Origin: an uncultured bacterium | Lineage (GTDB): Bacteria > Patescibacteriota > Minisyncoccia > Phycocordibacterales > CAIZLB01 | Assembly: GCA_903936565.1 (NCBI GenBank) | Contig: CAIZVZ010000004.1 | Span: 1 to 62,017, forward strand | Reading direction: 5' to 3' | DNA: 62,017 nucleotides | The notes under the pieces: model-generated | The model's database searches: none | What the model was told of the DNA's origin: nothing | The model's input: only the letters and a program-made list of their open reading frames with translations | Shown: piece by piece, positions 22,384-52,598 of the stretch | How the letters are laid out: each line of letters opens with the position of its first letter | How positions within the stretch are numbered: position 1 is the stretch's first letter | Translations under genes and position numbers: made by a program

Positions 22384-23922
22384 ATGGAAAAAGCAACATC
22401 TATATTAAAAACATCTACAAAAGCCATTATTATAGCCGTAATTATTTTAGTGCTAATATTTTTGAGCTTTCTTATGGTCAGTCTTGTACCAAGAATCTTA
22501 TCATCAATGGCCAACACTACCGTTTCAATATCATCAGCCTTCTTCCCTTCTGGTAACAAGACTGCAACAAATACAGCAACAAGCAGTGGAATATCTCTAA
22601 ACGGTCCCGATACAACATCAACAAACGCAGGAACATCTTCAAGCTCAAATGACTCATCAAAGGGAGATTTCCTATCGAACTTCTTCGGGCCAAGAAAAAA
22701 CAACAACACTGATCAGTCAGTGAATTTTAGTGTTGCAACCTCAACAAGACAAAACACAAACAATAATAACAACTCTGGTTCAAGTAATTCATACCGTCAA
22801 CCAAGTAATAATTATTCAGCCAACACAGGAACACCAGACTTGTCTGTACAGATATTATCAGTTGGAACAAAAACCAATGGTGTGTTTGTAGCGACAAATA
22901 ATTTTACAACAGACAGTACTGTAGTTGTTAATTTCCAAATAACAAACCAAGGAACTGCGGCGTCTGGTGCATGGGCTATGAGAGTCGACTCCCCTTCTTC
23001 AAATGCAATGGATAAGATTAAGACACTAACAGCAAGATCATTACCAGCCGGGGCTGCCGTGACTGGTCAAGTTGTATTTAACACTCCTGCAGTAGGAACA
23101 AATCAACAAATCACAATCTCTATAGATCCAAACAACACAATACATGAGAGCAACAAAACTAATAATCAAATTAGTTCAACCATAAACATAACTCAAGCTA
23201 ACAATTATTATAACTACAATAATAATTACAATACTTGTGTAAATGGTTACATGAACGGTGTTTACACTGGATGTACTAACAACAACAATTACAATAACTG
23301 TGTTAATGGATACATTAACGGAGTTTATACAGGATGTAACAACAATAACTACAATTACAACAACTGCGTGAACGGCTACGTAAACGGAGTCTATACTGGA
23401 TGTACCAACAATTATAATTATAATAACTGTATAAATGGTTACATGAACGGTGTTTACACTGGATGTAATAATTATTATGGGACAACTCAACCTAACCTAA
23501 ATGTAACCCTAATTGCACTTGGAAAATCTGATCTCTATAATCAATTTACTCAAACTACGTACCTAAGAACAGTAGATAAGGTGGCAATTAAATTTACCAT
23601 TACAAATAATTCTTCTGTATCTACACCAAGCTGGACCTGGAAAGCAAACCTAGTTGGACCAACTCCATATTACACAGGTACTTACTACAATAGTTATAAC
23701 GCTAATGGTTATACATACAATAGTGACGGTTCAAGAACATATATTGCACCGATCGTAGAAAATGGACTAGCCCCAGGAGAAACAAGAACTTACACCGCTA
23801 CCTTTGACGGTCTGACATATGGAACAAACTCTATGACAATCATTGTCGATTCAGCAAACAGTATTACAGAAAGCAACGAAGGTGATAATAGTATTAGTCA
23901 GTCATTCTTTGTGAGCTACTAA
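22384..23922 (+). CDS. Membrane-anchored surface protein with two CARDB-like domains and a Cys-containing repeat block
   Basis: N-terminal TM helix, an Asn/Ser/Thr-rich linker and two CARDB-like modules (PDLSVQILSVG...FQITNQGTAASGAW...IDPNNTIHESNKTNNQ, and PNLNVTLIALG...GETRTYTATF...VDSANSITESNEGDN). Five C[VI]NGYxNGVYTGC repeats lie between them. Confidence 0.6.
   Translation: MEKATSILKTSTKAIIIAVIILVLIFLSFLMVSLVPRILSSMANTTVSISSAFFPSGNKTATNTATSSGISLNGPDTTSTNAGTSSSSNDSSKGDFLSNFFGPRKNNNTDQSVNFSVATSTRQNTNNNNNSGSSNSYRQPSNNYSANTGTPDLSVQILSVGTKTNGVFVATNNFTTDSTVVVNFQITNQGTAASGAWAMRVDSPSSNAMDKIKTLTARSLPAGAAVTGQVVFNTPAVGTNQQITISIDPNNTIHESNKTNNQISSTINITQANNYYNYNNNYNTCVNGYMNGVYTGCTNNNNYNNCVNGYINGVYTGCNNNNYNYNNCVNGYVNGVYTGCTNNYNYNNCINGYMNGVYTGCNNYYGTTQPNLNVTLIALGKSDLYNQFTQTTYLRTVDKVAIKFTITNNSSVSTPSWTWKANLVGPTPYYTGTYYNSYNANGYTYNSDGSRTYIAPIVENGLAPGETRTYTATFDGLTYGTNSMTIIVDSANSITESNEGDNSISQSFFVSY
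23200..23478 (+). repeat. In-frame tandem repeat of ~60-66 bp, 5 copies
   Basis: Encodes NNYN(T/N)C(V/I)NGY(M/I/V)NGVYTGC(T/N)NN five times within the CARDB-domain protein. Confidence 0.8.
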
Positions 23923-34118: not shown

Positions 34119-37100
34119 TTATTTTCCCCCAAAGAAATTCCACAATTTTATAATTGGTGATAGCTTTTTTGGTTCACCAGTTCCCGTCCTTGTACCCATG
34201 TTACTCGCAGGGGTGGAGGTCGTGACTGTGTATCTATTGGCGTTAGACTTACCATTAGTGTCAATAACACCAGCGTCACCCGTCACACCCGTAACATCCT
34301 CAACGACCTTATTAACTACTCTCACCTCCAAAATTAGTGTTCCAACTTTTAGCGTATACAAGCCAAGCGCCCTAGGTGTCATTACATTTAACTTAATAAT
34401 ACCATCCTTATTTTTAACAAATTTAACATATTCATTGTTGAAAGTGGCAGTGACCTCCTTATCTTTATTTTTTAAATTTACATATATATAAGATTCTGGC
34501 TCAACACTAATTATCTGATATGCATTTCCCTTTTTATCAATAGATAGCTTTGTCTTTTTCTCTAGTCCATCAACTGATATAAACATCAGTGTTGTTGGCT
34601 GAGGCACCTTTTCTTTTGCCAATTCATGTAAGGTTGGCGTCTCAATTGGACTTTCCTTCATCATATATAGATCATATCCATTTATTATTCCCGCCTTATT
34701 TAATTCTTTATTAATTGAAGGTACTAATTTAGAGATATTGACCAGTGATTTTGGTAATGAATTATCAAACAATACATCAACTTTATTGAATAATTTCAAT
34801 TTTGGTAATGAACTGAACCCTGTAACAGGTTGTAGATCTAGCATATTAACAAGAGGATTTACAAGTTTTGAAACGCCAAAGTTTTTTCCAATATCCCCAA
34901 GACCTACCTTTGGAAGATTTGATAGATTAAGCTTGTTTAAGCTGTTATTCATATTTAAGAATTTTGTATCAACACTACCCCCACTATTGCCTCGATTTGT
35001 ATTATTAGGATTATTGTTACCAGAAACAGCAGGAGGAATAATTATAGGACGATTTACAACAACAGGTGGAGAGATTATACTTCCGCTTGAGTGTTCACTG
35101 CTTGGGCACGTTCTGTTGTTACCCTCTCCCACTACAGATGTTGCACTGTAATTATTTGAATTTGTAATGTTAATTATTCCAGAATCTCCTCCATTGCCAC
35201 AATCTGTGGAGTTCCCACCATTTGCGGTTACAATTGTGTCAGTAACAGTACCGTCTGAATTATAGATGATAACTACTCCTCCATTTCCGCCATTCCCTGT
35301 TCCGTTTGCTCCATTTGCAAATATTCTTCCAGTTGTGGATGTTGCAACAGTAGTTGTTCCTCCAGATTGGCCGTTCTGTGATCCACTTACAACCACATCA
35401 CTTGTTGTTGCATTTTGTATTGTAAGAGTGGCACCATTTGATGTTGTTGTTCCTGTGATGGTGATGTTTTTAAGAGTTATATTATGTCCCCCTCCTTCAA
35501 ATCCTCCGATGGAAAAACCAACTCCTTCTGCTATTGATGAGGAAGCTGTTGTTTGTGCATTACCAAAGAGTGATGTGTCAACTGTTGCTGTACAAGTTTC
35601 TGATGTTGAAGACGCTAGGTAGTAGTATGGACGGGTCACTTCATCCAACAGATCAGATCCGCAAGCTGTCCAGACTGGGGTGGCGTTGTCATAATTAAAT
35701 ACAATAGACCTCTCACTCAAATTACCTTTCACATCCACTGCTTTAACATAAAGAGTATGTTCTCCCCCACCTGGTCTTGGAATATCTCTGCCGCCCAGAG
35801 CGCAATTTAGAGGCTGATAATTTTCAGCATCTATTTTATATTCACAACTTGATGTTCCCGTACCCCAATCAATTGAAGGCGCCCATTTTATAGTGCTCGT
35901 TCCTACAAGTGGTGAAGAAATGGAAATCTGCGGAATAACAGGTCCTCCAGCAATGTTTGCTCCGAAGATGAAAAATCCATTACTGAATGCTTTGAAAATA
36001 TTTGTAGCCAAATTATAAATGGCATTTGAAATATTAACGACAACACCCCTAGCAATTATAATCCAATCAGAGTGACCGCCGTCTGTGGTAAAGTTACGGG
36101 TTGTAGTTGCATCAGCATTATACTCTCTTGTTGTAGAGCCATTTATTGTTCCTGTATTTTGTGAAATATCATCGTGAAAAGTTACATTTCCATTAACCAT
36201 CCCATTGTTATAACTGTAATCGTAAAAATCAAAAACTCCACCTACCGCAACAGAAGACGTACTGTCACGGTTAAAGCTACTGTCATAGAAGTTTACCGCC
36301 CAACCTGATGCAACAGAGATTGTGCCACCATTGTTTGAACTACTATCGTGAAAATTTAGAATTCCGCCTGAAGCAACATTTATTCTTCCAGTATTAACAC
36401 CACTACCATAAAAATCAATTGTACCACCAGAGAGAATGGAAATAGCTCCGCTGTTATAGCTAGTATCGTAAAACTTCATTGTACTACTAGATGCAACTGT
36501 GGTTGTACCATTGCTGTAACTACTATCATGGAATACAAGGTGGGTTATTGAAATATTATCAGCCAAACCTTTGACAGAACCGGTAACTGTTCCATAAGAC
36601 ATAACACCAGAGAGGCTTATAGTTCCACTCGTTGCATAAGCAAATCTAGCAGCTCCATTTATAATGCCCTTGTTGTAACTTGAATCATTGAAGTCTGCCA
36701 CAAACCCTGTAGTAATATCCATTACCCCATTAAAAATACTGTTATTATTGAATTCAACATTGCCGGCTGTTACATTAAAGTAATTAGAAACACTACTACT
36801 TCCATAGACATTCAAAATCCCTCCTGTTTGATAAAGTGCTCCAGTTCCAAGACTTGAAGAATTACTTAAATTTAGTGAACCAGCATTAAGTGTTGTTCTA
36901 CCAGAATATGTATTAACCCCATTAAGTGAAAGTCCACCGGCGCCACCCTTAGTTAAACCATATGATCCGCCAATTACACCTCCCGCTGTCAAAGTCTTAT
37001 TTACTCCATTAACCGTTACCGTTGTTGTTGCACTAAGTGTAATTGCACCTGTTCCTAAATTAAGATTATTTGTTCCGCCAAAAGTAAAGTTTCCATTCCA

Positions 37101-38303
37101 ATTTTGTAAATTATTTGTAGAAAGCGCAACTGCCCCGCCAGATGTATTATCTATTAATCCCCCGTTTATTATAAGAGTACTTGTACCAACAGCTCCTGCA
37201 TTATTAATATTCAAGATTCCTCCGTTCAAAACAATTCCTCCAGAAATACTATTTACACCAGCCAAAGTCAAAGTACCAGAACTCACTGTGGTTGTACCAG
37301 ACATTGTAATTGTAGAACTTGTCGCTTCTGTAATTGTACCTGTGTAACCAGAATTTATTTTAAGATTTTTAACATTTACATTTGTATCAATAACGGCCGA
37401 GCTTGTGGCACCAGTATCAAATATAGCGGTATCATCCACACCGGGTACACCAACACCATCTGATCCGCCAGTTGTAGCTGACCAATTAGCACTATTACCC
37501 CAGCTTCCCCCATTGGTCCCAACCCAATAATAATTATTTGATGTATAACTTAAACTTACATTATTCAGTATTGGAGTGTTAATCCCATCGGAAGATATGA
37601 GAGTTGTTTTGTAGTAAAGAGAACCACTCCACAAAAGGCCCGCAAGATTTATACTGTTTGTTCCAGCGGACAAAGTATTAAAATCATTTAAGACACCTGA
37701 GGAACTATACCAAGAATTTCCATCTTGGCTAAACTGAATTTGAACACTTGTATTTGGTGGAAGAGATGAAATTGTATATCCAAAACTATTGATAGAAGCT
37801 ACGCCATCGGCGGGTAAAAAATTAGTTGATGATAATGTTCCACTAGATGAATATGTAAAAAATGTTCCTTCAAAAGAAGTGAAGGCTACACTCACGGAGT
37901 TTAAAACAGGAGTATCTGTTCCATCTGTAACAAATATTACTCTATAGAAAAAGTAGGCTTTTTTCCATCCCATATTAGACAGATCTATTGTATTTGTTCC
38001 AACAGAAAGATTATCCCATGAATCCACCACGCCAGTAGAGCTGTACCACGATACATTATCATAGCTAAATTGCATTTTTAAACTAGTACCCTCGGGAATT
38101 GCCGTGGCATTATACGTCACACTGTTTATCATTGATGTTCCCTCAACCGGCAGAAAGTTGGTGGATGTAATCATACCTCCGTCCATATATGAGCCCGTAG
38201 AAAAAGTATGAAGGGGTACCAGAGAGACAGAAAAAATAGCAACTATTGCAGATATTATAAAAATATATCTAGCTATTTTTTTTGTAAATAAGTATCCAAT
38301 CAT
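34119..38303 (-). CDS. Giant surface protein (1394 aa) with a duplicated N-terminal domain, autotransporter-associated beta-strand (PATR-like) repeats and a beta-helix region
   Basis: N-terminal anchor. Two ~140-aa copies of TSTNFLP..G..INS..Y....P..TS...QFS.D..SWYSS.GV......LS.GTN.I.L. PATR-like runs (SGTLTLAGVNSISGGIVLNGGILNINNAG..., GGLSLNGVNTYSGRTTLNAGSLNLSN). GNGGNGG/GNGGDSG segments resemble the partial ORF at 1..483. Confidence 0.65.
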   Translation of the reverse strand: MIGYLFTKKIARYIFIISAIVAIFSVSLVPLHTFSTGSYMDGGMITSTNFLPVEGTSMINSVTYNATAIPEGTSLKMQFSYDNVSWYSSTGVVDSWDNLSVGTNTIDLSNMGWKKAYFFYRVIFVTDGTDTPVLNSVSVAFTSFEGTFFTYSSSGTLSSTNFLPADGVASINSFGYTISSLPPNTSVQIQFSQDGNSWYSSSGVLNDFNTLSAGTNSINLAGLLWSGSLYYKTTLISSDGINTPILNNVSLSYTSNNYYWVGTNGGSWGNSANWSATTGGSDGVGVPGVDDTAIFDTGATSSAVIDTNVNVKNLKINSGYTGTITEATSSTITMSGTTTVSSGTLTLAGVNSISGGIVLNGGILNINNAGAVGTSTLIINGGLIDNTSGGAVALSTNNLQNWNGNFTFGGTNNLNLGTGAITLSATTTVTVNGVNKTLTAGGVIGGSYGLTKGGAGGLSLNGVNTYSGRTTLNAGSLNLSNSSSLGTGALYQTGGILNVYGSSSVSNYFNVTAGNVEFNNNSIFNGVMDITTGFVADFNDSSYNKGIINGAARFAYATSGTISLSGVMSYGTVTGSVKGLADNISITHLVFHDSSYSNGTTTVASSSTMKFYDTSYNSGAISILSGGTIDFYGSGVNTGRINVASGGILNFHDSSSNNGGTISVASGWAVNFYDSSFNRDSTSSVAVGGVFDFYDYSYNNGMVNGNVTFHDDISQNTGTINGSTTREYNADATTTRNFTTDGGHSDWIIIARGVVVNISNAIYNLATNIFKAFSNGFFIFGANIAGGPVIPQISISSPLVGTSTIKWAPSIDWGTGTSSCEYKIDAENYQPLNCALGGRDIPRPGGGEHTLYVKAVDVKGNLSERSIVFNYDNATPVWTACGSDLLDEVTRPYYYLASSTSETCTATVDTSLFGNAQTTASSSIAEGVGFSIGGFEGGGHNITLKNITITGTTTSNGATLTIQNATTSDVVVSGSQNGQSGGTTTVATSTTGRIFANGANGTGNGGNGGVVIIYNSDGTVTDTIVTANGGNSTDCGNGGDSGIINITNSNNYSATSVVGEGNNRTCPSSEHSSGSIISPPVVVNRPIIIPPAVSGNNNPNNTNRGNSGGSVDTKFLNMNNSLNKLNLSNLPKVGLGDIGKNFGVSKLVNPLVNMLDLQPVTGFSSLPKLKLFNKVDVLFDNSLPKSLVNISKLVPSINKELNKAGIINGYDLYMMKESPIETPTLHELAKEKVPQPTTLMFISVDGLEKKTKLSIDKKGNAYQIISVEPESYIYVNLKNKDKEVTATFNNEYVKFVKNKDGIIKLNVMTPRALGLYTLKVGTLILEVRVVNKVVEDVTGVTGDAGVIDTNGKSNANRYTVTTSTPASNMGTRTGTGEPKKLSPIIKLWNFFGGK

Positions 38304-38404: not shown

Positions 38405-39652
38405 TTAATGGAAAGGTGATATATTTACCCTCTTTAATCCAACCTTAGTAAACCCCTCATTGATATTAATAATTTCCTTAAACTTTGGATCTAAATACCC
38501 TAAAATCATCTTTTTGCGAAGCTTATAGGTATTAAAATGACCCATCATACCTAGATATGAATTTACACAAGCTACCGCCCTCCTATTATTCTTACCAACA
38601 GTCTCAACGGTCCCAACAACCTCTACCTCACCTTTCTTCAAAACACCATTAAATTCTTGAATCTTTTTATAAAAACTAGTCTTTGTTTTGTTTCTAATAT
38701 AAAGACGATACGGTTTTATAAAAGCTCCCAAAAACAATACTCCGTTGTTGATATGTTGAAGATATATCTTTTTTGGATGCAAATCAAGCAAAAGTTTGTC
38801 TTTTAAATATTGTCTTATAGTAGGAATTATGGATTTTAAATACTCTTTATCTTTATGAACAATTACCATATCATCTACATATCGCCCGTAATACTTGCAG
38901 CCAAGCTCATATTTTACAAAATGATCAAAATCATCCAGATAGACGTTCCCAAACAACTGGGAAGTTAGGTTTCCGATAGGTAAACCCGTGTCTAATTTTG
39001 CACCAAATAGACTTTTAGATTTTGGTAGTCCCTGCCAGTTTTCTTTGCTTCCCTTCACGACACAATGTTTTGTTGGGTCATGGAATATTGTTTGGCTAAT
39101 AAGATTCAGCAGCCAAACAGTATCAAACACATAACCTGCCTTAACCTTAACTTCACCATTTACATCTTTTGACTTATTCATTTTTTCTTCAATCTTTTTA
39201 TATAAAATATTTTTATCAATAGACATAAAATACCCCTTGATATCTAATTTTAATACATAACAATCTGATTTGTAATTTTGTGAACAAGAACGAATAAAAT
39301 GATCTAGTCTCTTAATTCCGCACAACGTCCCCTTTCCTTTTCTACAGCTATAACTATCATCAATAAAGGAAGAATCAAATATTGGATTTATGTAATTAAA
39401 AATTAAATGATGAATAATTCTATCTCTAAAGTCAGCGGCAAAAATTTCTCTTTTTAGTGGTTTGAAAGATATGAAGCAGGAGCTTTTGCTAATTACGTAT
39501 GACCCGCTGGTAATTTCTCTACCAAGTTCCAATAATCTTTTTTCATATTCTATCTCAAATTTTAACTGACTCGATGTTCCACGTTTGTTTTTCCTAGCGA
39601 AATAATATGCATCAAACAAATCATGTAAAATCTTTCTGTTGTTAGCCTGCAT
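38405..39652 (-). CDS. DGR-type reverse transcriptase
   Basis: RT motifs are DIKGYFMSID, LPIGNLTSQLFGNVYL (the I/LGxxxSQ form characteristic of DGR RTs), YGRYVDDMVIV (YxDD) and LHPKKIYL. It lies 122 nt downstream of the TR. Confidence 0.9.
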   Translation of the reverse strand: MQANNRKILHDLFDAYYFARKNKRGTSSQLKFEIEYEKRLLELGREITSGSYVISKSSCFISFKPLKREIFAADFRDRIIHHLIFNYINPIFDSSFIDDSYSCRKGKGTLCGIKRLDHFIRSCSQNYKSDCYVLKLDIKGYFMSIDKNILYKKIEEKMNKSKDVNGEVKVKAGYVFDTVWLLNLISQTIFHDPTKHCVVKGSKENWQGLPKSKSLFGAKLDTGLPIGNLTSQLFGNVYLDDFDHFVKYELGCKYYGRYVDDMVIVHKDKEYLKSIIPTIRQYLKDKLLLDLHPKKIYLQHINNGVLFLGAFIKPYRLYIRNKTKTSFYKKIQEFNGVLKKGEVEVVGTVETVGKNNRRAVACVNSYLGMMGHFNTYKLRKKMILGYLDPKFKEIININEGFTKVGLKRVNISPFH

Positions 39653-39774
39653 TAACAGAATTATAACAAAGATGACTCAATGAACAAGCGGCGCTAACAA
39701 TGTGATGATGATGAAATTATTATAATCCCAAATGAAATACCCCAAGTATTTCTTGAGGTATTTCACTATCCAGC

Positions 39775-39962
39775 CCTTGAGGCAACGCACAGAAAAGCCG
39801 TAGGCCTTGGTGTTCAAGTTCCGGTTGACACCAGCGTTGCCAGAGTTCAGGTTGTGGTTCCAGGCTGTAGTACCACTTGCAACAGATGACCAAAAGTTCG
39901 TGTTCGTCCCCAGATTGTTGAAAGAGCCATCGGTATTGCGGTAGCCTGAAAGGAAACCCCTA
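39775..39962 (-). repeat. DGR template repeat (TR)
   Basis: Identical to 41806-41993 at 180 of 188 positions (constant offset 2031). In the target frame it reads ...FNNLGTNTNFWSS...AWNHNLNSGNAGVNRNLNTKAYGFSVRCLK, which is rich in AAC codons. Confidence 0.9.
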
Positions 39963-40203
39963 ACGCAAGAATAATCATTGATTTCCTTCTGTTAGCCTAA
40001 CGGAAAACAAAAGTTTATATAATTTCCATAAATTATCATATATTCCTCAAAACTAAATACATTGATATGCAAAAGACTTGAGAAGATTATTGGGCTGATT
40101 AAGGCACGCCTATCTTTGCCGTAACAAAAGATAGTTCTGGCCGATATTCCGATATTTGCAAAAAACAACATAGAAAAAACATATCTACGTTTCTATCTTA
40201 TTT

Positions 40204-40545
40204 CTAACCACTTGTTTTTTGCCAAGCGTATAACTGCAAAGAAACTTCTTCAATTCTTTCATTAAGAGATATAAATTTATTCAAACCAATTTGTTTAAGA
40301 TCCTTAATTAATCTAAGATATAAACGCACCACCTCTAAATGATCTATCGCTGATTCCAGTAATTTATATTTTGACAAACTATTGTTTGCTCTATAAATAT
40401 CTGCAATCATCCATGATATCTCCCTCTTCAGGTCTTCTCCAATGGTATACTTGTATTCACGTTTAAAGTTTTTAGTAAAAATAAATACATCCAACAGAAA
40501 ATCATAACTTGCCTTATATACAGGAAGATTACTGTGGATAGTCAT
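40204..40545 (-). CDS. avd: Avd-like four-helix-bundle protein (DGR accessory variability determinant)
   Basis: 113 aa. LPVYKASYDFLLDVFIFTKNFKREYKYTIGEDLKREISWMIADIYRAN fits the Avd / 23S-rRNA-IVS four-helix-bundle family pattern. It sits between the target and the TR. Confidence 0.8.
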   Translation of the reverse strand: MTIHSNLPVYKASYDFLLDVFIFTKNFKREYKYTIGEDLKREISWMIADIYRANNSLSKYKLLESAIDHLEVVRLYLRLIKDLKQIGLNKFISLNERIEEVSLQLYAWQKTSG

Positions 40546-41596
40546 GGTCTATTTGTTGATTATAATTATTTTTCTTTTTAGAGTCTAGAATATTTTGTAC
40601 CTTACGATCAAAATCAGAAATATAATTTTTATCTTGTTCAACCTGATATTTTTCATATTCCCCCAACACTAAGGTCTCAGCCACAGCATGACTAACCTTA
40701 CCTAAATCACTCAAAATGTCACGGTCGTTTAATTTTAAAAACTCACCAAGCTTACTCTCCCAATCCAACATAAACATAGCCTTTTTGTGCTTAGCCTGTG
40801 ATTCAGCAAAAATCAAATATTGCTCCACTATATTATTTAGACCAGCAAGTTCTTCTTCGTTTAAATAATTTTTAGCTACCAACATATCCGTTTTGCGTAT
40901 GACACCCTGTGGACCATTTTTCCAATTGGTGAGGCCTAAATTTAGCTTACTACTACCCACACGACTAGTAATTATTTCAGCAGCCGTTTGACCTGAAATA
41001 GCAAAGTGTAACTTATTTTGTACGGTGGCAAAAAAATGTTGAGCTTCAATACTATTTTTATCATAATCTACACTACACTGTGCATAAATATCTGTGATTT
41101 TTTGATAAAATCTACGCTCACTGCTGCGAATATCCGCAACACGGGCTAACTGCTCTTCAAAATAATCTTGACCAAAGGTGTAGTTTGGAGTTTTTAACCT
41201 TTCATCGTCCATTGTAAATCCCTTAATAATATATTCTTTTAGTCGTTCTGTCGCCCAGATACGAAATTGGGTAGCATTAGAAGAATTAACACGATATCCC
41301 ACGGAAATAATTGCATCTAAATTATAATGTTTCGTCTTGTATTTTTTACCATCACTGGCAGTTACCGAGAATTCCTCGGTAACTGATTTTTCTTGTAATT
41401 CATTGCTCTCAAAGATATTTTTAAGGTGTAAAGAGACATTATCGGTTGAACAATTAAAAAGTGACGCAATAAGCTTTTGTGTAAGCCAAATATTTTCATT
41501 GTGTAAAAATATCTCTACTTTTACCTTGCCATTTGGTGTAGTATAGAGTAAAAATTCTGTGAAGCTATTCTGTTTTATAATTTGATTATTTTTCAT
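40529..41596 (-). CDS. RhuM-family protein
   Basis: FLLYTTPNGKVKVEIFLHNENIWLTQKLIASLF...HYNLDAIISVGYRVNSSNATQFRIWATERLKEYIIKGFTMDDERLK matches the RhuM family pattern as I recall it. Its 3' end overlaps the avd start by 17 nt. Confidence 0.7.
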   Translation of the reverse strand: MKNNQIIKQNSFTEFLLYTTPNGKVKVEIFLHNENIWLTQKLIASLFNCSTDNVSLHLKNIFESNELQEKSVTEEFSVTASDGKKYKTKHYNLDAIISVGYRVNSSNATQFRIWATERLKEYIIKGFTMDDERLKTPNYTFGQDYFEEQLARVADIRSSERRFYQKITDIYAQCSVDYDKNSIEAQHFFATVQNKLHFAISGQTAAEIITSRVGSSKLNLGLTNWKNGPQGVIRKTDMLVAKNYLNEEELAGLNNIVEQYLIFAESQAKHKKAMFMLDWESKLGEFLKLNDRDILSDLGKVSHAVAETLVLGEYEKYQVEQDKNYISDFDRKVQNILDSKKKNNYNQQIDHDYPQ

Positions 41597-41681
41597 GATA
41601 TTTTGGCCGTTCTATTGCTTTCATACTTTCCTTACCCCCATTTTGAACTATCAACTTTTGGTTTACAGTTCATTAATTTTG

Positions 41682-41758
41682 GGCGATTCAGCAGGCGATT
41701 CAGCAGAATTGCCTGCTGGGCGATTTTACAAAATCGAGCCTACTAGGCGCTCCGCGCC
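41682..41758 (-). other. Structured non-coding 3' flank of the DGR target gene
   Basis: Tandem GGCGATTCAG at 41682-41691 and 41694-41703. An 8-bp stem CAGCAGGC/GCCTGCTG (41689-41696 with 41711-41718). Palindrome CGATTTT-ac-AAAATCG (41721-41736). GC hairpin GGCGC-tcc-GCGCC (41746-41758). Confidence 0.6.
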
Positions 41759-41762
41759 CGAA

Positions 41763-41795
41763 GCAAATAGGGCAAATCCCGCAAATGGGGCAAAT
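41763..41795 (-). repeat. Four phased GCAAAT (coding-strand ATTTGC) hexamers at 9-bp spacing
   Basis: GCAAAT at 41763, 41772, 41781 and 41790, separated by agg, ccc and ggg. They end 5 nt from the target stop codon (41801-41803). Confidence 0.85.
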
Positions 41796-41800
41796 GAGCA

Positions 41801-44299
41801 TTAATCCTTGAGGCAACGCACAGAAAAGCCGTAGGCCTTGGTGCTCAAGTTCCGGTTGACACCAGCGTTGCCAGAGTACAGGTAGTGGTACCAGGCTGTC
41901 GTACCACTTGCAACAGATGACCAAAAGTGCGTGTCCGTCCCCAGATTGTAGAAAGAGCCATCGGTATTGCGGTAGCCTGAAAGGAAACCCCTATATGAGC
42001 CGGACATGTTTCTCATGGTTGTTCCTTCATTTGTTCCTCTCCAGCCAGTGGTAGTTGTATCATATGGGAAATCAGTGACGCAAGATCCTGATGTACAGGT
42101 GGTGCGCTCTAGTGTTGTGAATTCATCATGGGTGGGAACATGCCATCCTGTTGGACAGATTCCCTTGGCACCCGGAGTTGTTCCTCCACACATTACCTGA
42201 GTCCATTGATATAATCCTCCGCCACTTATACAGTTATTTGTATCGTTAGCATAGCAATATTTTTGAATGGATGCGGCGGTTGCACAACTTGTTCCTTGAG
42301 TTGTGGCACCTGTTACCATTGTTCCAACGTTTAGGTTCTGTTGCATCCAACATTGAGAACCAATTAGAACAGTTGTGTAGGTTTTTCCATCTCTTGTATC
42401 CAGTAGCGCTGAACCACACGCCCAAGATGATGAGGCAGCAAGAGTAATTTGCCCTGTTGCTGTATCTATCACTACATTATTAGAAGATGCAATTCTACTT
42501 GTGGCGTGGAAGGTGTCAGTTATTGTTATTGGTGTTGGGTCAACAATGTAATCAATATCAACCGAGCCTGTGGTCTTTAGATCAAAAGTATTGGTGGAAT
42601 GATGGAGGTTCATGAGAAGAACCTTATACATCTTTTCAGCATTAATACTCCCGAAGGTGACAACTGGTTGTTCACTTGGGGTGCCGTCGTAGACGGGGTA
42701 TACATCTATTCTTGCAGACGTTACTGTTGATGATGTTCCCTGCACTCCAGCTCGTGTTGGACGAGCATAGATAGTATTATCATTCTTGTTTGTCAAGAAT
42801 TTTTCAAATGTTACCCTCACTGTGTGGCCATCTGCAATTGTTGCCCAAGTATTATCTTGATCTTTTACAAGATCATAGATGTCTCCTGTAATTTCTCCAT
42901 TCTCATCTAGTTCCAATGCTTTTGTTATGAAAATGATTTCAAATGTTTGTGTGGAGAGATGAGGGACTGTCCACTCTACATAATCAAGCTTTCCGTCACC
43001 ATCCAAATCATATGCATGGAATTGCATGTCTTGACCGTTATTATTTAACCACTTGATTTTAATCTTGTTTTCTTGTCCAACTTTGTATATTGGAGGGATG
43101 TTGGTGAAGGCAAGAACATTTTGTGTATGAGGTTGGCCGTCTGCTTCTCCGGCAGAGTCAGAAACCGTAACAATCTTTCCAGTGTCTGTTACAGCTTCAG
43201 CGAGAGTTGGTGCTGGGGTCTGGTATTCCACTATCACGTCCGTGGTTTTAGAGGTGGGTTTTGTGGTGGATATTTTGGTTGAGGTGGAAAGATTTGTGGA
43301 GGATGTAGCTGTGGTGTTAATGATGTTTGTTCCGCCATCACCTACTTGGATATCTCCACTGGTGGAAGTGGATAATGTTGATTCTGTGTTGGCAGACGAG
43401 GTTTCTGTTGTTGAAGTACCTGTTCCTGTTCCTACTCCACCATTTTCACTTGTTTTGCCTGCAGTATTTTGTGATGTTTCTGTTGTGGATCCTTGTTCGT
43501 TTGTTGTGTTGTCCGTTGTTGCAGGATCTGTTTGGGTTTGTGCAGTAGATTTTGTTTGTGCTTCAACTTCTGCTTGTGGCAATACATCCACTACTGTAAC
43601 TTCGGGTTGTGGTGGTGTTGGGAGCACCACCGTTTCTTCAACGGCTGTTGCAACAGAAGCCATGGAGCTACCTAATTTTGAAAAAGCCCTACTTACATAA
43701 GCAACAAACCGAGAGAAGAAGTTTCTTTGTGAATATACTTGTTGTAACTTTATATTTTTCTGTATCTTCAGTGACTCTGCCAAAGCAAGGGATTCTTTGG
43801 ATATTGCGTTTTGTCTTGATAATTCCTTGAGTTTTTGTCTGTCTGTTTTGGTTAATGTGGAAGCTGGTGATGTAGATAATAGGGATTGTGTAGAAGATGT
43901 GAAAGAAGATGTTGTTATTTTCTTATCCACCCCGACTCTAACAACGGGTTGTACCTTAACTTCTCCTGCTGACTTTGGTATTTCAATCAAGTGTTGCCCA
44001 GCGGAGATGGTAGAGGCGCTAATTAAGGTTGTCCATTTAATAGGTTGGCCTGGGACAGAGGGGGCCTGTGTAGCAACAGACCCCTTCACAACAGATACCT
44101 TACCTTTCTCCGCTTGATGACGAGTGGAAGATGAGGAGAGGTATGTGGTGGTTTTGATTAATGCTAAAACAATGAAGATGATTACGAATGATAAAATAAT
44201 CCCGAGAACAAATGCTACTTTTGGTTTTCTCAATAACCCATTTAACGATTCTTTTTTCTTTTGTTCATCTTGCTCAAAAACACTATTCATAATATTCAT
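41801..44299 (-). CDS. DGR target protein: membrane-anchored surface protein with a C-terminal FISUMP/C-type-lectin-fold variable domain
   Basis: N-terminal TM helix (VAFVLGIILSFVIIFIVLALI), a Ser/Thr-rich stalk and a DLDGDGKLDYVEW Ca-binding-like loop. The C-terminus (DGKTYTTVLIGSQCWMQQNL...CPTGWHVPTHDEFTTLE...GYRNTDGSF...GFSVRCLKD) fits the Fibrobacter-succinogenes-major-paralogous (TIGR02145-like) lectin fold. The VR covers the last 63 codons. Confidence 0.85.
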   Translation of the reverse strand: MNIMNSVFEQDEQKKKESLNGLLRKPKVAFVLGIILSFVIIFIVLALIKTTTYLSSSSTRHQAEKGKVSVVKGSVATQAPSVPGQPIKWTTLISASTISAGQHLIEIPKSAGEVKVQPVVRVGVDKKITTSSFTSSTQSLLSTSPASTLTKTDRQKLKELSRQNAISKESLALAESLKIQKNIKLQQVYSQRNFFSRFVAYVSRAFSKLGSSMASVATAVEETVVLPTPPQPEVTVVDVLPQAEVEAQTKSTAQTQTDPATTDNTTNEQGSTTETSQNTAGKTSENGGVGTGTGTSTTETSSANTESTLSTSTSGDIQVGDGGTNIINTTATSSTNLSTSTKISTTKPTSKTTDVIVEYQTPAPTLAEAVTDTGKIVTVSDSAGEADGQPHTQNVLAFTNIPPIYKVGQENKIKIKWLNNNGQDMQFHAYDLDGDGKLDYVEWTVPHLSTQTFEIIFITKALELDENGEITGDIYDLVKDQDNTWATIADGHTVRVTFEKFLTNKNDNTIYARPTRAGVQGTSSTVTSARIDVYPVYDGTPSEQPVVTFGSINAEKMYKVLLMNLHHSTNTFDLKTTGSVDIDYIVDPTPITITDTFHATSRIASSNNVVIDTATGQITLAASSSWACGSALLDTRDGKTYTTVLIGSQCWMQQNLNVGTMVTGATTQGTSCATAASIQKYCYANDTNNCISGGGLYQWTQVMCGGTTPGAKGICPTGWHVPTHDEFTTLERTTCTSGSCVTDFPYDTTTTGWRGTNEGTTMRNMSGSYRGFLSGYRNTDGSFYNLGTDTHFWSSVASGTTAWYHYLYSGNAGVNRNLSTKAYGFSVRCLKD
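41806..41993 (-). repeat. DGR variable repeat (VR)
   Basis: Copy of the TR with 8 mismatches, at 41844, 41878, 41884, 41890, 41900, 41929, 41935 and 41950. Seven of them correspond to a coding-strand A in the TR. Confidence 0.9.
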
Positions 44300-44407: not shown

Positions 44408-44483
44408 TGGAGCCGCTTCCCAGATTCGAACTGGGGACCTACTGTTTACAAAACAGTTGCTCTACCAACTGAGCTAAAGCGGC
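44408..44483 (-). tRNA. tRNA-Thr (anticodon UGU), CCA encoded
   Basis: The reverse complement GCCGCTTTAGCTCAGTTGGTAGAGCAACTGTTTTGTAAACAGTAGGTCCCCAGTTCGAATCTGGGAAGCGGCTCCA folds as a cloverleaf. It has a 7-bp acceptor stem, D arm GCTC/GAGC, anticodon stem ACTGT/ACAGT with loop TT-TGT-AA, and T arm CCCAG-TTCGAAT-CTGGG. Confidence 0.9.
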
Positions 44484-50759: not shown

Positions 50760-52598
50760 TTACTTCACCTTGATAACCTCTTTTGTCTGTGCGCCAACTA
50801 CTCCTGTTGCAGGAATTCCATTATCTTGTTGGAACTTAATAACGGCTTGTTTTGTTTTTTCTCCAAAGTAGTTTGATTCGTTACCTGGTGATCCAGCCTC
50901 ACCAGGAGTCTCATTTACTACATATCCTTTTGTATTCAGATATTTTTGTAGAGCTGCGACACCACTTTGTACTGACCCCTTCTGTAGATTAAGAGCTGAT
51001 TTAATAGCTGAGTAAATCGCTGAAGGTGATGAGAACATTGAAGTAGATGGTGAGACAAGATCGAAGTTTGCATTTGCTGTTTGATTTTTGGTCATTGGCA
51101 ATGTACATGTCAACGCTCTTCCACTACATACGTCACTATCATTCCATCCCGCAAATTTAGCCTTCGTAGAATCAGTAACTGAAACAGTAACCGTTGCAGA
51201 AGATCCCGCAGGATATGAAGTTTTACCTAGTGGTGTAACTACTCCATAAGAAGCAGCTGCTCCTGATTTTGTTACGACCAAGTCATAGGTTCCGGTAGTA
51301 ACTGGTGTTATGGGTGGTGTTACAGGAGGTGTTGTAGGTGGAGTTACGGGTGGTGTTACGGGTGGTGTTGCTGTACCTGAGTTTGTTGCTGGACTAAATC
51401 GGGCGTAGATTATTGTGTCAACATCTAAAGCAAAACTACAGGTCGAACCCTGGTTGTTACACTTTCCACCTGAGTAGTAGCCATCGATTCCATTATTACT
51501 CCATCCTGAAAAAATATAACCTGGAGCTGGTACAGCCGTCATAGTTACGAGAGATCCAATAGGTAGTTGTCCGGAAGGTGTTCCCGTAACACTTCCCACA
51601 CTTGAATTAACAGTTGGGATTCCCATGGAATAGTTAAGATTCAAATCCTTAAATACAACAATTTTATTAAAACCAAGTGTTGAATTAGCAGATACGTTTA
51701 CAGCCTTGAAAACAGCCTCTGTACCCATATTGCCATTAAGGATAAATGTACATGTTGGATTTCCACCGGAACATGGTCCAGATCCAAACCAAGTAAGGAA
51801 CATTGATCCCTGAGCTGGAGTTGCGGTCAAGGTAATACGTGTACCAGCTGGATACGTTCCGGTCACAACGCTGTTGGATCCATAGGTTTTTACAGCACTT
51901 TGTGTTCCACTAATGGATCCACTGGATTCACCCTGTTCTCCTGGAGCGTTATTTAGGTAAGTTGTAAATGTATACATTGTACCTGTTGCGACAACTGTGG
52001 TTGTAGCAGTCGTAGGTGTAACAGGAACACTTAAATCAAATACCGCATTAGCCACTTGATCCTCAGTTATAACAAAAGAGTACCTCGTACTTTTTCCAGA
52101 AGCCCTTCCGTTATTCCAACCTGAGAACTTTGAATTTCCAATTGGTGTAGCTTCCAAAACAACATTGGAACCCTCATTATAAAGTCCTGCCCCAGTCACA
52201 TTTCCGAAACCATTTCCCGAAGTTGAAGTTACAAGTCTGTATTTTGCTCCGGTAAGTGGTGTAAGAGCACCAAGACACTCCACTGTAGCCATTGGTCTAG
52301 TTATTGGACCAAAATACCCGTTAGATGGAGACACACCTCTTGCAACTTGGTATGAGGCAAGCGCAGTCCTTAGTGTCGATCCAAAGATATCACCAGCAGG
52401 TGAAGTCAAAAAACCCGTCCTTGTTAAAAATTTTTGAAGATTTACTAAATCATTAGTTGCAGGATCATTAACAGACCCAACTGTTAAATCTCTATTAAAA
52501 GTACATTCAGCCTGTGAAGCTGCGCTCACCTGCGATAAATTCACAAAACCAAATGTAAAAATAGCAAGCATGATAAATAGGTAACGATATGTTTTCAT
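50760..52598 (-). CDS. Secreted protein with N- and C-terminal peptidoglycan-binding domains and InlB-B-repeat-like modules
   Basis: Signal peptide. PG_binding_1-like segments lie at both ends (LVNLQKFLTRTGFL...FGSTLRTALASYQ; VAALQKYLNTKGYV...FGEKTKQAVIKFQQDNGIPATG). Repeated Y..GS.VTLTATP..G..F.GW modules and a PPVTPPVTPPTTPPVTPPITP linker are present. Confidence 0.6.
   Translation of the reverse strand: MKTYRYLFIMLAIFTFGFVNLSQVSAASQAECTFNRDLTVGSVNDPATNDLVNLQKFLTRTGFLTSPAGDIFGSTLRTALASYQVARGVSPSNGYFGPITRPMATVECLGALTPLTGAKYRLVTSTSGNGFGNVTGAGLYNEGSNVVLEATPIGNSKFSGWNNGRASGKSTRYSFVITEDQVANAVFDLSVPVTPTTATTTVVATGTMYTFTTYLNNAPGEQGESSGSISGTQSAVKTYGSNSVVTGTYPAGTRITLTATPAQGSMFLTWFGSGPCSGGNPTCTFILNGNMGTEAVFKAVNVSANSTLGFNKIVVFKDLNLNYSMGIPTVNSSVGSVTGTPSGQLPIGSLVTMTAVPAPGYIFSGWSNNGIDGYYSGGKCNNQGSTCSFALDVDTIIYARFSPATNSGTATPPVTPPVTPPTTPPVTPPITPVTTGTYDLVVTKSGAAASYGVVTPLGKTSYPAGSSATVTVSVTDSTKAKFAGWNDSDVCSGRALTCTLPMTKNQTANANFDLVSPSTSMFSSPSAIYSAIKSALNLQKGSVQSGVAALQKYLNTKGYVVNETPGEAGSPGNESNYFGEKTKQAVIKFQQDNGIPATGVVGAQTKEVIKVK

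What the first reader, a model, noticed from the sequence alone, without database searches (positions are those of the whole stretch)
41806..41993. TR/VR mismatches are adenine-specific and confined to AAC codons
TR 39775-39962 and VR 41806-41993 align without gaps at a constant offset of 2031, with 8 differences. Seven are plus-strand T in the TR, which is A on the coding strand. The TR/VR positions are 39813/41844, 39847/41878, 39853/41884, 39859/41890, 39898/41929, 39904/41935 and 39919/41950. In the target frame each hits the first or second base of a TR AAC codon. The changes are AAC to AGC (Ser), TAC (Tyr, four times), CAC (His) and GAC (Asp). The TR frame reads FNNLGTNTNFWSS..AWNHNLNSG..NLNTK and the VR reads FYNLGTDTHFWSS..AWYHYLYSG..NLSTK. 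This is the textbook signature of mutagenic retrohoming. The last ~38 nt of the homology (41806-41843) are invariant despite containing adenines, as expected for an IMH-like 3' region.
Basis: seen in the sequence. Interest (0 to 1): 0.85.

Follow-up and report, generated by a model that had tools for sequence, protein, structure and literature searches.

The report
Ordinary diversity-generating retroelement in Patescibacteria
The repeat pair is the template and variable region of a diversity-generating retroelement, a known reverse-transcriptase system that rewrites adenine-templated codons in the tip of a bacterial surface protein; it is real, complete and of a well-described kind.

Summary
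TR 39775-39962 and VR 41806-41993 align without gaps and differ at 8 sites. Seven are TR adenines on the coding (-) strand, and all seven lie in in-frame AAC codons. The eighth is a silent T>G.

The surroundings form a complete diversity-generating retroelement (DGR) on the - strand:
- a membrane-anchored target protein with a C-terminal FISUMP/Fib_succ_major domain that ends in the VR;
- avd;
- TR;
- a 122-nt spacer with a 14-bp hairpin;
- a reverse transcriptase (RT) with the DGR-specific IGNLTSQ motif.

In 16 related lineages, 296 of 319 TR/VR mismatches are at TR adenines. Near-identical contig pairs differ almost only inside the VR (25 of 26 and 3 of 3 mismatches), so the family is active in nature. 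In the window's own lineage the VR is the same on at least 11 contigs, with one ambiguous TR-like variant.

This is a new member of the known Patescibacteria (CPR) DGR clade, so interest is low. The IMH remark cannot be shown from the window alone.

Extras worth a note:
- a RhuM/PDC-S05 gene inserted between the target gene and avd;
- VR-specific tandem 8-9-nt repeats just downstream of every VR in the family;
- allele differences with an unexpected 5' polarity.

The parts
41801..44299 (-). Target gene, 832 aa. It has an N-terminal hydrophobic anchor (residues 30-48) and a C-terminal FISUMP/Fib_succ_major domain (residues ~632-832) whose last 63 codons are the VR.
   Evidence: ORF. Pfam PF09603 E 1.1e-26. 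NCBIfam TIGR02145 E 1.7e-34. Hydrophobic segment. Conserved cysteines.
41806..41993 (-). Variable region (VR), 188 nt. It ends 2 nt before the stop codon.
   Evidence: 8 differences from TR, 7 of them at TR adenines in AAC codons.
41806..41843 (-). 3' tail of the VR, identical to the TR tail (IMH = IMH*). It holds 6 unchanged As and encodes the conserved ...KAYGFSVRCLK strand.
   Evidence: Family pooling: 1 of 25 tail As changed against 94 of 245 in the body.
41763..41799 (-). Four tandem 9-mers (GCTCATTTG CCCCATTTG CGGGATTTG CCCTATTTG C) starting 7 nt after the VR. They are absent after the TR. This is a candidate VR-specific recognition element (inferred).
   Evidence: A related tandem CTATTTGA-type motif lies downstream of the VR in 15 of 16 lineages by eye; a strict pattern finds tandem copies in 9 and at least one copy in 15. 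It also follows all three VRs of L010.
41746..41758 (-). Short GC-rich inverted repeat GGCGC-GGA-GCGCC, 47 nt after the VR. This is a candidate hairpin/cruciform.
   Evidence: Conserved as GGGCGC-GAA-GCGCCC in L003. The fold is not significant on its own (z 0.1).
40529..41596 (-). Inserted RhuM-family gene (PADLOC candidate defence PDC-S05), 355 aa. Its stop codon lies 17 nt inside avd. It is lineage-specific and probably not part of the DGR mechanism.
   Evidence: Pfam PF13310 E 2.9e-103. PADLOC PDC-S05 E 1.3e-139. Absent from all relatives. Insertion boundaries.
40204..40545 (-). avd, the accessory variability determinant (113 aa, four-helix bundle).
   Evidence: Pfam bAvd 50 bits against a cut-off of 40. 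PHROG 'Avd protein of DGR' E 9e-17. NCBIfam DivGenRetAVD 45 bits, below its cut-off of 80.
39963..40203 (-). Conserved non-coding leader between avd and TR. It includes the motif TTTTCCGTTAGG at 39996-40007.
   Evidence: the sequence is conserved in WIN, L003, L026, L009, L005, L030 and L006.
39775..39962 (-). Template repeat (TR), 188 nt, 52% GC in a 37% GC window. It has 44 As and 10 in-frame AAC codons plus 2 AAT codons.
   Evidence: It differs by 3 nt from the TR of a lineage whose target protein is only 75% identical.
39653..39774 (-). Spacer between TR and RT, with a 14-bp hairpin at 39733-39765. This is the presumed RT-Avd binding and priming region of the DGR RNA (inferred).
   Evidence: z -8.3. 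Hairpins of unrelated sequence sit at the same place in 11 of 15 lineages.
38405..39652 (-). DGR reverse transcriptase, 415 aa, with IGNLTSQ at residues 226-232 and YVDD at residues 258-261.
   Evidence: Pfam RVT_1. Best solved-structure match 8ub7 at E 4e-33, which I take to be Bordetella phage bRT. Motifs. PHROG RT E 8.5e-97.

Best explanation
This is a chromosomal diversity-generating retroelement (DGR) of a Patescibacteria (CPR) bacterium.

Shown:
- All components lie in one orientation: target gene with a 3' VR, avd, non-coding TR, spacer hairpin, and an RT of the DGR clade.
- TR/VR differences are specific to TR adenines.
- Relatives of this RT family diversify their VRs in nature.

Inferred from the Bordetella phage BPP-1 model:
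- An avd-TR-spacer-RT transcript is made. In this lineage it probably starts upstream of the inserted RhuM gene.
- RT-Avd binds the structured spacer and primes cDNA synthesis at the TR 3' end.
- The RT misincorporates opposite template adenines, most often at the first A of AAC.
- The cDNA replaces the VR, so up to 10 AAC and 2 AAT codons in the C-terminal FISUMP (C-type-lectin-like) domain are recoded without ever creating a stop codon. That gives about 15^10 to 15^12 possible proteins.
- The protein has an N-terminal membrane anchor, so the variable face is displayed outside the cell. It presumably binds a changing ligand such as a host cell, a particle or a phage.

The present VR allele carries only 7 substitutions and is the same on many contigs. 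Activity in this lineage is therefore low, or masked by selection.
For: - TR/VR pair and codon analysis. P = 2.4e-4 for the A bias and 0.002 for confinement to AAC codons.
- RT: RVT_1 domain, IGNLTSQ and YVDD motifs, best solved-structure hit 8ub7 (taken to be bRT) at 4e-33. The SQ motif is described as diagnostic of DGR RTs in PMC3521204.
- Avd.
- Target domain: Fib_succ_major. This is a recognised DGR target class, category d / CLec2, in PMC5758913.
- Family survey: 16 lineages with 296 of 319 mismatches at TR-A. Change rates are 64% at the first A of AAC, 39% at the second A, and 24% at other As.
- Natural activity in relatives: L006 against L035 gives 5,818 nt aligned and 26 mismatches, 25 of them in the VR and 24 at TR-A. 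L003 against L028 gives 11,269 nt and 3 mismatches, all in the VR at TR-A.
- TR conservation: the TR differs by 3 of 188 nt between lineages whose targets are 75% identical.
- Spacer hairpin: z -8.3, recurrent in relatives.
- Host and context: homologues are named Paceibacterota, Patescibacteria, Parcubacteria or Minisyncoccia. Housekeeping neighbours are rpsB, tsf and pheST. This matches the Patescibacteria-restricted, cell-encoded, low-activity DGR clade 2 of PMC8144416.
Against: - No read-level data were available. In the window's own lineage the same VR allele is found on at least 11 contigs.
- The only variant, L002, carries the unmutated TR state at 7 sites. It could be an assembly chimera or an RT-independent gene conversion.
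- None of the 24 non-AAC As is changed, although the family average is 24%.
- The RhuM insertion replaced the sequence just upstream of avd, which might have altered expression.
- The GC hairpin after the VR is short (5 bp) and not significant on its own.
- The C-type-lectin fold could not be confirmed because the AlphaFold2 model had a pLDDT of 40.
- One of the 8 mismatches is not at an A.
Confidence: 0.95

Rival explanations
1. It is a genuine DGR by descent, but silent or decaying in this lineage. On this reading the 7 substitutions are a fossil of past events, and the RhuM insertion uncoupled avd-TR-RT from its promoter.
For: - The same VR is found on at least 11 contigs; the RT sequence is indexed in 30 blocks of the collection.
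- Only 7 of 44 As differ, against 14-24 A-site differences in the full-length TR/VR pairs of relatives.
- One silent non-A change has accumulated in the VR.
- The avd upstream region has been replaced by the insertion.
- CPR clade 2 DGRs have lower than average activity (PMC8144416).
Against: - The RT, avd and target ORFs are intact with their catalytic motifs.
- TR and VR are still 96% identical with intact flanking elements.
- avd overlaps the RhuM stop codon, which is compatible with co-transcription and translational coupling.
- Allele L002 carries the TR-specific silent T marker, which implies a recent transfer of information from TR to VR if the contig is real.
Confidence: 0.3
2. It is not a retroelement product. 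On this reading a duplicated 3' gene fragment diverged by ordinary mutation or gene conversion, and the A bias is chance or selection on asparagine codons.
For: There are only 8 differences, one of them not at an A. Allele L002 could be explained by plain TR-to-VR gene conversion.
Against: - A bias P = 2.4e-4 and AAC confinement P = 0.002.
- A DGR-type RT and Avd lie adjacent.
- The same architecture and the same bias are seen in 16 lineages, 296 of 319 mismatches.
- VR-restricted differences occur between otherwise identical contigs.
Confidence: 0.02
3. The RT belongs to another system, such as a defence-associated RT (DRT/UG), a retron or a group II intron, and only happens to lie next to the repeat.
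For: There are weak partial hits to group II, Drt and UG RT models. A candidate defence gene, PDC-S05, lies next door.
Against: - All those hits are far below the family cut-offs and cover only the RT core.
- The best solved-structure hit is 8ub7, taken to be bRT.
- The SQ motif is present.
- Rfam found no intron or retron RNA.
- RhuM is absent from all relatives that keep target-avd-TR-RT.
Confidence: 0.01

Closest known systems
Bordetella phage BPP-1 DGR (mtd-avd-TR-brt)
   Same: It has the same gene order (target, avd, TR, spacer, RT), an Avd accessory protein and an SQ-motif RT (best solved-structure match). The TR is rich in AAC codons, the VR sits at the 3' end of the target gene, the spacer after the TR is structured, and an inverted repeat lies downstream of the VR.
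   Different: - This element is chromosomal in a CPR bacterium, not in a phage.
- The target carries a FISUMP domain, not Mtd.
- IMH and IMH* are identical over the last 38 nt, whereas in BPP-1 they differ.
- The inverted repeat is only 5 bp with a GGA triloop and lies 47 nt from the VR. BPP-1-type hairpins have 7-10 bp stems, GRNA tetraloops and lie 4-34 bp away (PMC3240598).
- Tandem 9-mers lie between the VR and the hairpin.
- A RhuM gene is inserted between the target gene and avd.
Legionella pneumophila DGR (LdtA) and the 'category d' / CLec2 target class (DUF1566, DUF823, Fib_succ_major)
   Same: It is a cellular DGR that diversifies the C-terminal Fib_succ_major/DUF1566-type domain of a surface-displayed protein with conserved cysteines (PMC5758913).
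   Different: LdtA is an outer-membrane lipoprotein of a diderm. Here the protein has an N-terminal transmembrane anchor in a Patescibacteria cell. I did not align the VR to the CLec2 logo.
CPR/Patescibacteria DGRs (the 'CPR set' of Wu et al. 2018, PMC5758913; DGR clade 2 of Roux et al. 2021, PMC8144416)
   Same: The host group is the same. These DGRs are cell-encoded, aquatic, mostly have a single target, show occasional non-A substitutions, and have low apparent activity.
   Different: Nothing essential differs. This is one more member. The nested RhuM/PDC-S05 gene and the tandem repeats after the VR were not found in the papers I could search.

Membership tests
Diversity-generating retroelement (DGR) | Reverse transcriptase of the DGR clade with the (I/V/L)GxxxSQ motif in RT domain 4 and an intact YxDD motif | tested here: met
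   IGNLTSQ at residues 226-232 and YVDD at residues 258-261. The best solved-structure match is 8ub7, taken to be Bordetella phage bRT, at E 4e-33. The motif definition comes from PMC3521204.
Diversity-generating retroelement (DGR) | A TR/VR near-repeat whose mismatches are predominantly (at least 75%) at TR adenines | tested here: met
   7 of 8 mismatches (88%) are at TR-A, P = 2.4e-4. The 75% criterion is quoted from PMC8144416.
Diversity-generating retroelement (DGR) | VR inside the 3' end of a protein-coding target gene, with TR non-coding and close to the RT | tested here: met
   The VR is the last 63 codons of the 832-aa ORF. The TR is intergenic, 122 nt upstream of the RT start.
Diversity-generating retroelement (DGR) | Accessory protein (Avd, or HRDC in other classes) | tested here: met
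   Pfam bAvd scores 50 bits against a cut-off of 40. PHROG 'Avd protein of DGR' gives E 9e-17. NCBIfam DivGenRetAVD scores 45 bits, below its cut-off of 80.
Diversity-generating retroelement (DGR) | IMH at the VR 3' end that marks the 3' limit of A mutagenesis, with a non-identical IMH* in the TR | tested here: inconclusive
   The last 38 nt are identical in TR and VR. Their 6 unchanged As are not significant alone. Pooling six family loci gives 1 of 25 tail As changed against 94 of 245 in the body. Identical IMH and IMH* are known in some DGRs (PMC5758913).
Diversity-generating retroelement (DGR) | GC-rich inverted repeat (hairpin/cruciform) downstream of the VR. This is not universal: it is found in 34% of DGRs. 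| tested here: inconclusive
   GGCGC-GGA-GCGCC lies at 41746-41758, 47 nt after the VR, and is conserved in L003. Its fold z-score is 0.1. It is shorter than the 7-10 bp stems with GRNA loops of phage DGRs.
Diversity-generating retroelement (DGR) | VR displayed on a C-type lectin (or Ig) fold | tested here: inconclusive
   The domain is Fib_succ_major/FISUMP, which is grouped with the CLec2 targets in PMC5758913. The AlphaFold2 model was unusable, with a pLDDT of 40. No solved relative was found by sequence.
Diversity-generating retroelement (DGR) | VR hypervariable among otherwise identical genomes, as evidence of activity | tested here: inconclusive
   Window lineage: one allele on at least 11 contigs, plus one TR-like variant (L002) that may be an artefact. 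Relatives meet the criterion clearly: 25 of 26 mismatches fall in the VR for L006/L035, and 3 of 3 for L003/L028.
Diversity-generating retroelement (DGR) | Adenine-mutagenised cDNA and retrohoming demonstrated experimentally | not testable with these tools
   This needs reads, RNA/cDNA data or reconstitution.
RhuM family / PADLOC candidate defence PDC-S05 (the inserted gene only) | Full-length match to the family profile | tested here: met
   Pfam PF13310 gives E 2.9e-103. PADLOC PDC-S05 gives E 1.3e-139 over residues 1-342. Function was not tested. No paper links RhuM to DGRs.

The most novel reading that the evidence does not exclude
In this Patescibacteria DGR clade the TR and VR tails are identical. 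The element that marks a VR as the recipient may therefore be the tandem 8-9-nt direct repeats that follow every VR: four copies of nnnnATTTG in the window, and two or three copies of CTATTTGA in relatives. They occur with or without a hairpin and never follow the TR. That would be a target-recognition signal of a new type. A second possibility comes from natural allele pairs in two lineages. They differ only in the 5' part of the VR and keep shared 3' substitutions. This would mean that cDNA can be incorporated partially from the far (5') side, the reverse of the BPP-1 polarity.
Probability: 0.3. Interest if true: 0.55.

Novelty: new member of a known kind. Interest (0 to 1): 0.3.

Why it matters
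As a DGR it adds nothing conceptually. Thousands are catalogued, including a Patescibacteria-specific clade with the same type of target domain.

Its practical value is as a clean, complete example from an uncultivated, host-dependent bacterium. It marks one membrane-anchored FISUMP protein as a probable adaptive binding protein. It also comes with a family of 16 lineages in which natural before-and-after VR alleles can be compared.

If the VR-specific tandem repeats prove to be the recognition signal, they would explain how DGRs with identical IMH and IMH* tell recipient from donor. They would also be useful for engineering DGR targets.

Tried and rejected
- **Second VR or remote target in the window.** I scanned for an A-tolerant TR match and for repeats. 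None was found.
- **Structure of the FISUMP domain.** An AlphaFold2 model built on 18 homologues had a pLDDT of 40 and was unusable, so I ran no fold search. Sequence and profile searches of the PDB found nothing for the target domain or Avd. I ran no further search on a deeper alignment, because the fold does not decide the verdict.
- **Rfam.** Only a tRNA was found, and no known RNA family in the TR or spacer.
- **Promoter and terminator scan of 39600-41850.** The number of hits was no higher than in shuffled sequence.
- **Tandem repeats as the avd promoter.** I rejected this as the main reading. The repeats follow all three VRs of L010, and they follow the VR of L109, whose avd-RT lies on the other strand. 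In L110 they lie 7 nt from the avd ATG.
- **RhuM as a DGR accessory gene.** I rejected this because the gene is absent from every relative and no literature links the two.
- **DNA of the third allele series (P0076).** It was not available, so those alleles could be compared only at the protein level.
- **The 38-nt invariant tail as evidence from the window alone.** I rejected this on statistics.
Full report
**1. The observation**

The two intervals are 188 nt each. Similarity ends sharply on both sides.

The coding strand is the - strand. There the VR is the last 63 codons of an 832-aa ORF (41801-44299), and the homology ends 2 nt before the stop codon.

Seven mismatches are A in the TR. All seven lie in in-frame AAC codons, six at the first base and one at the second. 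The eighth mismatch is a silent T>G (ACT>ACG at TR 39869 / VR 41900).

The TR has 44 As in 188 nt. The chance of at least 7 of 8 mismatches at A is 2.4e-4. The chance that all seven fall among the 20 As of the ten AAC codons is 0.002.

No other copy of the repeat and no A-tolerant match exists in the window. The TR is 52% GC in a 37% GC window.

**2. What surrounds it**

Read on the - strand, the locus runs in this order:
- tRNA-Thr (44483-44408);
- the target gene;
- the VR;
- four tandem 9-mers (41799-41763);
- a short GC inverted repeat (41758-41746);
- a RhuM-family gene (41596-40529);
- avd (40545-40204);
- a conserved 241-nt leader;
- the TR (39962-39775);
- a 122-nt spacer with a 14-bp hairpin (39765-39733, z -8.3);
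- the RT (39652-38405);
- a 1394-aa protein with autotransporter-type repeats.

The RT has the DGR-diagnostic IGNLTSQ motif and a YVDD motif (motif definition in PMC3521204). Its best solved-structure match is 8ub7 at E 4e-33, which I take to be the Bordetella phage DGR RT. Hits to group II intron, retron and defence RT models are all far below their cut-offs.

Avd passes the Pfam bAvd threshold and matches the PHROG 'Avd protein of DGR' family.

The target protein has an N-terminal hydrophobic anchor at residues 30-48. Its C-terminal domain is Fib_succ_major/FISUMP (Pfam E 1e-26, NCBIfam E 2e-34) with invariant cysteines. That domain class is a recognised DGR target category (category d / CLec2, exemplified by Legionella LdtA; PMC5758913).

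**3. Host and context**

Close homologues come from contigs labelled Paceibacterota, Patescibacteria, Parcubacteria or Minisyncoccia. Housekeeping genes flank the cassette: rpsB and tsf on one side, pheS and pheT on the other. It is therefore a chromosomal DGR of a CPR bacterium.

This matches the Patescibacteria-restricted, cell-encoded, aquatic DGR clade 2 of Roux et al. 2021, which has lower than average activity (PMC8144416). It also matches the 'CPR set' of Wu et al. 2018.

**4. Related loci**

Scans with the RT and look-ups of target homologues gave 16 distinct lineages with a TR/VR pair, with RT identity to the window between 49% and 85% where it was measured.
- In total, 296 of 319 TR/VR mismatches are at TR adenines.
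- The change rate is 64% at the first A of AAC, 39% at the second A and 24% at other As. This is consistent with AAC being called the most mutable context in the reconstituted BPP-1 system (PMC12875486).
- The TR of lineage L003 differs from the window TR by only 3 nt, although the target proteins are 75% identical. A conserved TR with a diverged VR is what a DGR predicts.

**5. Evidence of activity**

Two relative pairs are decisive.
- L006 and L035 align over 5,818 nt with 26 mismatches. Twenty-five are inside the 189-nt VR, 24 of those are at TR-A positions, and they are spread over the whole VR. The TRs are identical.
- L003 and L028 are identical over 11,269 nt except for three VR positions, all at TR adenines.

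In the window's own lineage the picture is quieter.
- The same target protein is found on at least 11 contigs, and the RT sequence is indexed in 30 blocks of the collection.
- L001 has the same TR and VR as the window.
- One contig from another sample (L002) is identical to the window over 2,742 nt except at 7 VR sites. At those sites it carries the TR base, including the silent T marker. It keeps the G at 41844.
- That is what an unmutagenised transfer from TR to VR over part of the VR would give. A gene conversion or an assembler chimera built at small k could give the same, and without reads I cannot decide.

**6. The IMH remark**

The last 38 nt are indeed unchanged. With 7 of 44 As changed overall, six unchanged As are expected about one time in three, and the first 43 nt are equally unchanged.

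Pooling six family loci does show protection: 1 of 25 As changed in the last 30 nt against 94 of 245 in the body. It also shows an excess of non-A differences in the tail.

In the window the TR and VR tails are identical. Wu et al. note such cases and conclude that recognition must then extend downstream.

**7. What lies downstream of the VR**

Immediately after the VR, and never after the TR, the family carries short tandem direct repeats.
- The window has GCTCATTTG CCCCATTTG CGGGATTTG CCCTATTTG.
- Most relatives have two or three copies of (C/T)TATTTGAC.
- L026 has five copies of a CTCCTTTG / CTATTTG type.

A strict pattern finds 33 copies in the 80-nt windows after the VR of the 16 lineages. 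It finds 2 after the TRs, and 2.7 are expected from the loci as a whole. I defined the motif from these same data, so the P value is inflated.

L010 has three target genes. Each VR is A-biased (24 of 25, 21 of 26 and 23 of 27 differences, the last two counts including a 3-nt indel), and each is followed within about 13 nt by tandem TATTTGAC repeats. All five occurrences of TATTTGAC in that 9.6-kb locus are at these sites, and flank similarity stops just beyond the motif.

The repeats follow the VR whatever gene comes next: avd, a Fic gene, a NYN gene or another target gene. In L109 avd-TR-RT lies on the opposite strand. I therefore prefer a VR-linked cis element to an avd promoter.

Many lineages also have an inverted repeat, either before or after the tandem repeats. 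The window's is short: GGCGC-GGA-GCGCC, conserved as GGGCGC-GAA-GCGCCC in L003. It is weaker than the 7-10 bp stems with GRNA loops described for phage DGRs (PMC3240598).

The function of the tandem repeats is inferred, not shown. I found no description of them.

**8. The spacer**

A stable hairpin lies 9 nt after the TR. Hairpins of unrelated sequence occupy the same place in 11 of 15 lineages. They are missing only where the RT gene starts within about 20 nt of the TR.

In BPP-1 the spacer folds into a structure that recruits RT-Avd and provides the priming adenosine (PMC12875486). I infer the same role here.

**9. The RhuM gene**

The 355-aa gene between the target gene and avd matches Pfam Virulence_RhuM (E 3e-103) and the PADLOC candidate defence family PDC-S05 (E 1e-139).

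It is absent from all relatives, which have only 60-220 nt at that position. Alignment with L003 shows that homology is kept through the tandem repeats and the GC hairpin, is then lost, and resumes exactly at the avd ATG. The RhuM stop codon lies 17 nt inside avd.

Other lineages carry different small genes inside or next to the cassette: Fic, NYN, GIY-YIG and AbiEii. The cassette's junctions therefore seem to collect such genes. I treat RhuM as a passenger.

**10. An unexplained point**

In two lineages the allele differences lie in the 5' part of the VR while 3' substitutions are shared.
- L002 against the window: differences at VR positions 43-115, with the shared substitution at 149.
- L003, L028 and P0072: differences at positions 26-33, with all 11 A-site substitutions from position 45 onward shared.

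The BPP-1 model fixes the 3' boundary at IMH and lets the 5' boundary vary, which predicts the opposite. Possible explanations are:
- partial incorporation of cDNA at a replication fork with loss of its 5' end;
- mismatch-repair patches;
- gene conversion;
- for L002 only, an assembly artefact.

A TT>GG (Phe>Trp) polymorphism inside the 'protected' tail of the L003 lineage is also not an adenine change.

**11. Verdict**

The finding is right, and the reading as a DGR is right. It is a standard, complete member of the known Patescibacteria DGR clade with a known target class, so novelty and interest are low. Three side observations could repay follow-up: the VR-specific tandem repeats, the allele polarity and the nested PDC-S05 gene.

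Noticed in passing
window 41763-41799 (-); also L010 1222-1250, 2676-2705 and 6508-6540; L006, L009, L026, L031, L033, L039 and L108-L111 just after their VRs: Tandem 8-9-nt direct repeats (nnnnATTTG four times in the window; CTATTTGA-type in relatives) follow the VR in 15 of 16 lineages and never follow the TR. They occur after all three VRs of a three-target DGR. They may be a VR-specific recognition element.
   Followed up: partly
window 40529-41596 (-): A RhuM-family gene that matches PADLOC candidate defence PDC-S05 (E 1e-139) is inserted between the target gene and avd. Its stop codon lies inside avd. It is absent from all relatives. Other lineages carry Fic, NYN, GIY-YIG or AbiEii genes at the cassette junctions (L109, L111, L108, L003).
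   Followed up: partly
L002 2442-2629 against window 41806-41993; L003 12255-12443 against L028 3747-3935: Natural VR alleles differ only in the 5' part of the VR and share the 3' substitutions. This is the opposite of the 3'-anchored polarity of the BPP-1 model. The L002 allele also carries the TR's silent T marker.
   Followed up: partly
L003/L028 VR index 168-169 (L003 12422-12423): A TT>GG (Phe>Trp) difference from the TR lies inside the otherwise protected 3' tail. It is polymorphic among alleles: P0002 and P0075 have Trp, P0072 and P0073 have Phe. It is not an adenine change.
   Followed up: no
window 39733-39765 (-), and the equivalent place in L003, L006, L008, L009, L010, L013, L026, L029, L037 and L038: A stable hairpin lies a few nt after the TR. 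Its sequence is unrelated between lineages. It is missing only where the RT starts directly after the TR.
   Followed up: partly
window 39996-40007 (-): The non-coding motif TTTTCCGTTAGG, about 35 nt upstream of the TR start, is conserved in at least seven lineages. Its function is unknown; it could be a promoter, a cDNA stop or an RT-binding site.
   Followed up: no
window 44408-44483 (-): tRNA-Thr(TGT) lies about 110 nt upstream of the target gene start. The cassette sits in different genomic neighbourhoods in different lineages, so it may move or lie in a variable island.
   Followed up: no
window 34119-38303 (-): A 1394-aa protein with autotransporter-type (PATR) repeats follows the RT here and in L003, L026, L005, L007 and L108. 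It lies upstream in L009. It is a conserved neighbour of the cassette but carries no VR.
   Followed up: partly
window 1-60000: GC skew of the + strand is negative over almost the whole window. The - strand is therefore probably the leading strand, and the target gene is co-directional with replication. That is the orientation reported as favourable for DGR editing in E. coli (PMC12875486). The inference is confounded by gene-strand bias.
   Followed up: no
window 21157-21451, 23211-23471 and 51295-51378: There are other tandem repeat arrays: 30 nt seven times, 63-66 nt four times and 12 nt five times. They presumably lie within repetitive proteins and were not examined.
   Followed up: no
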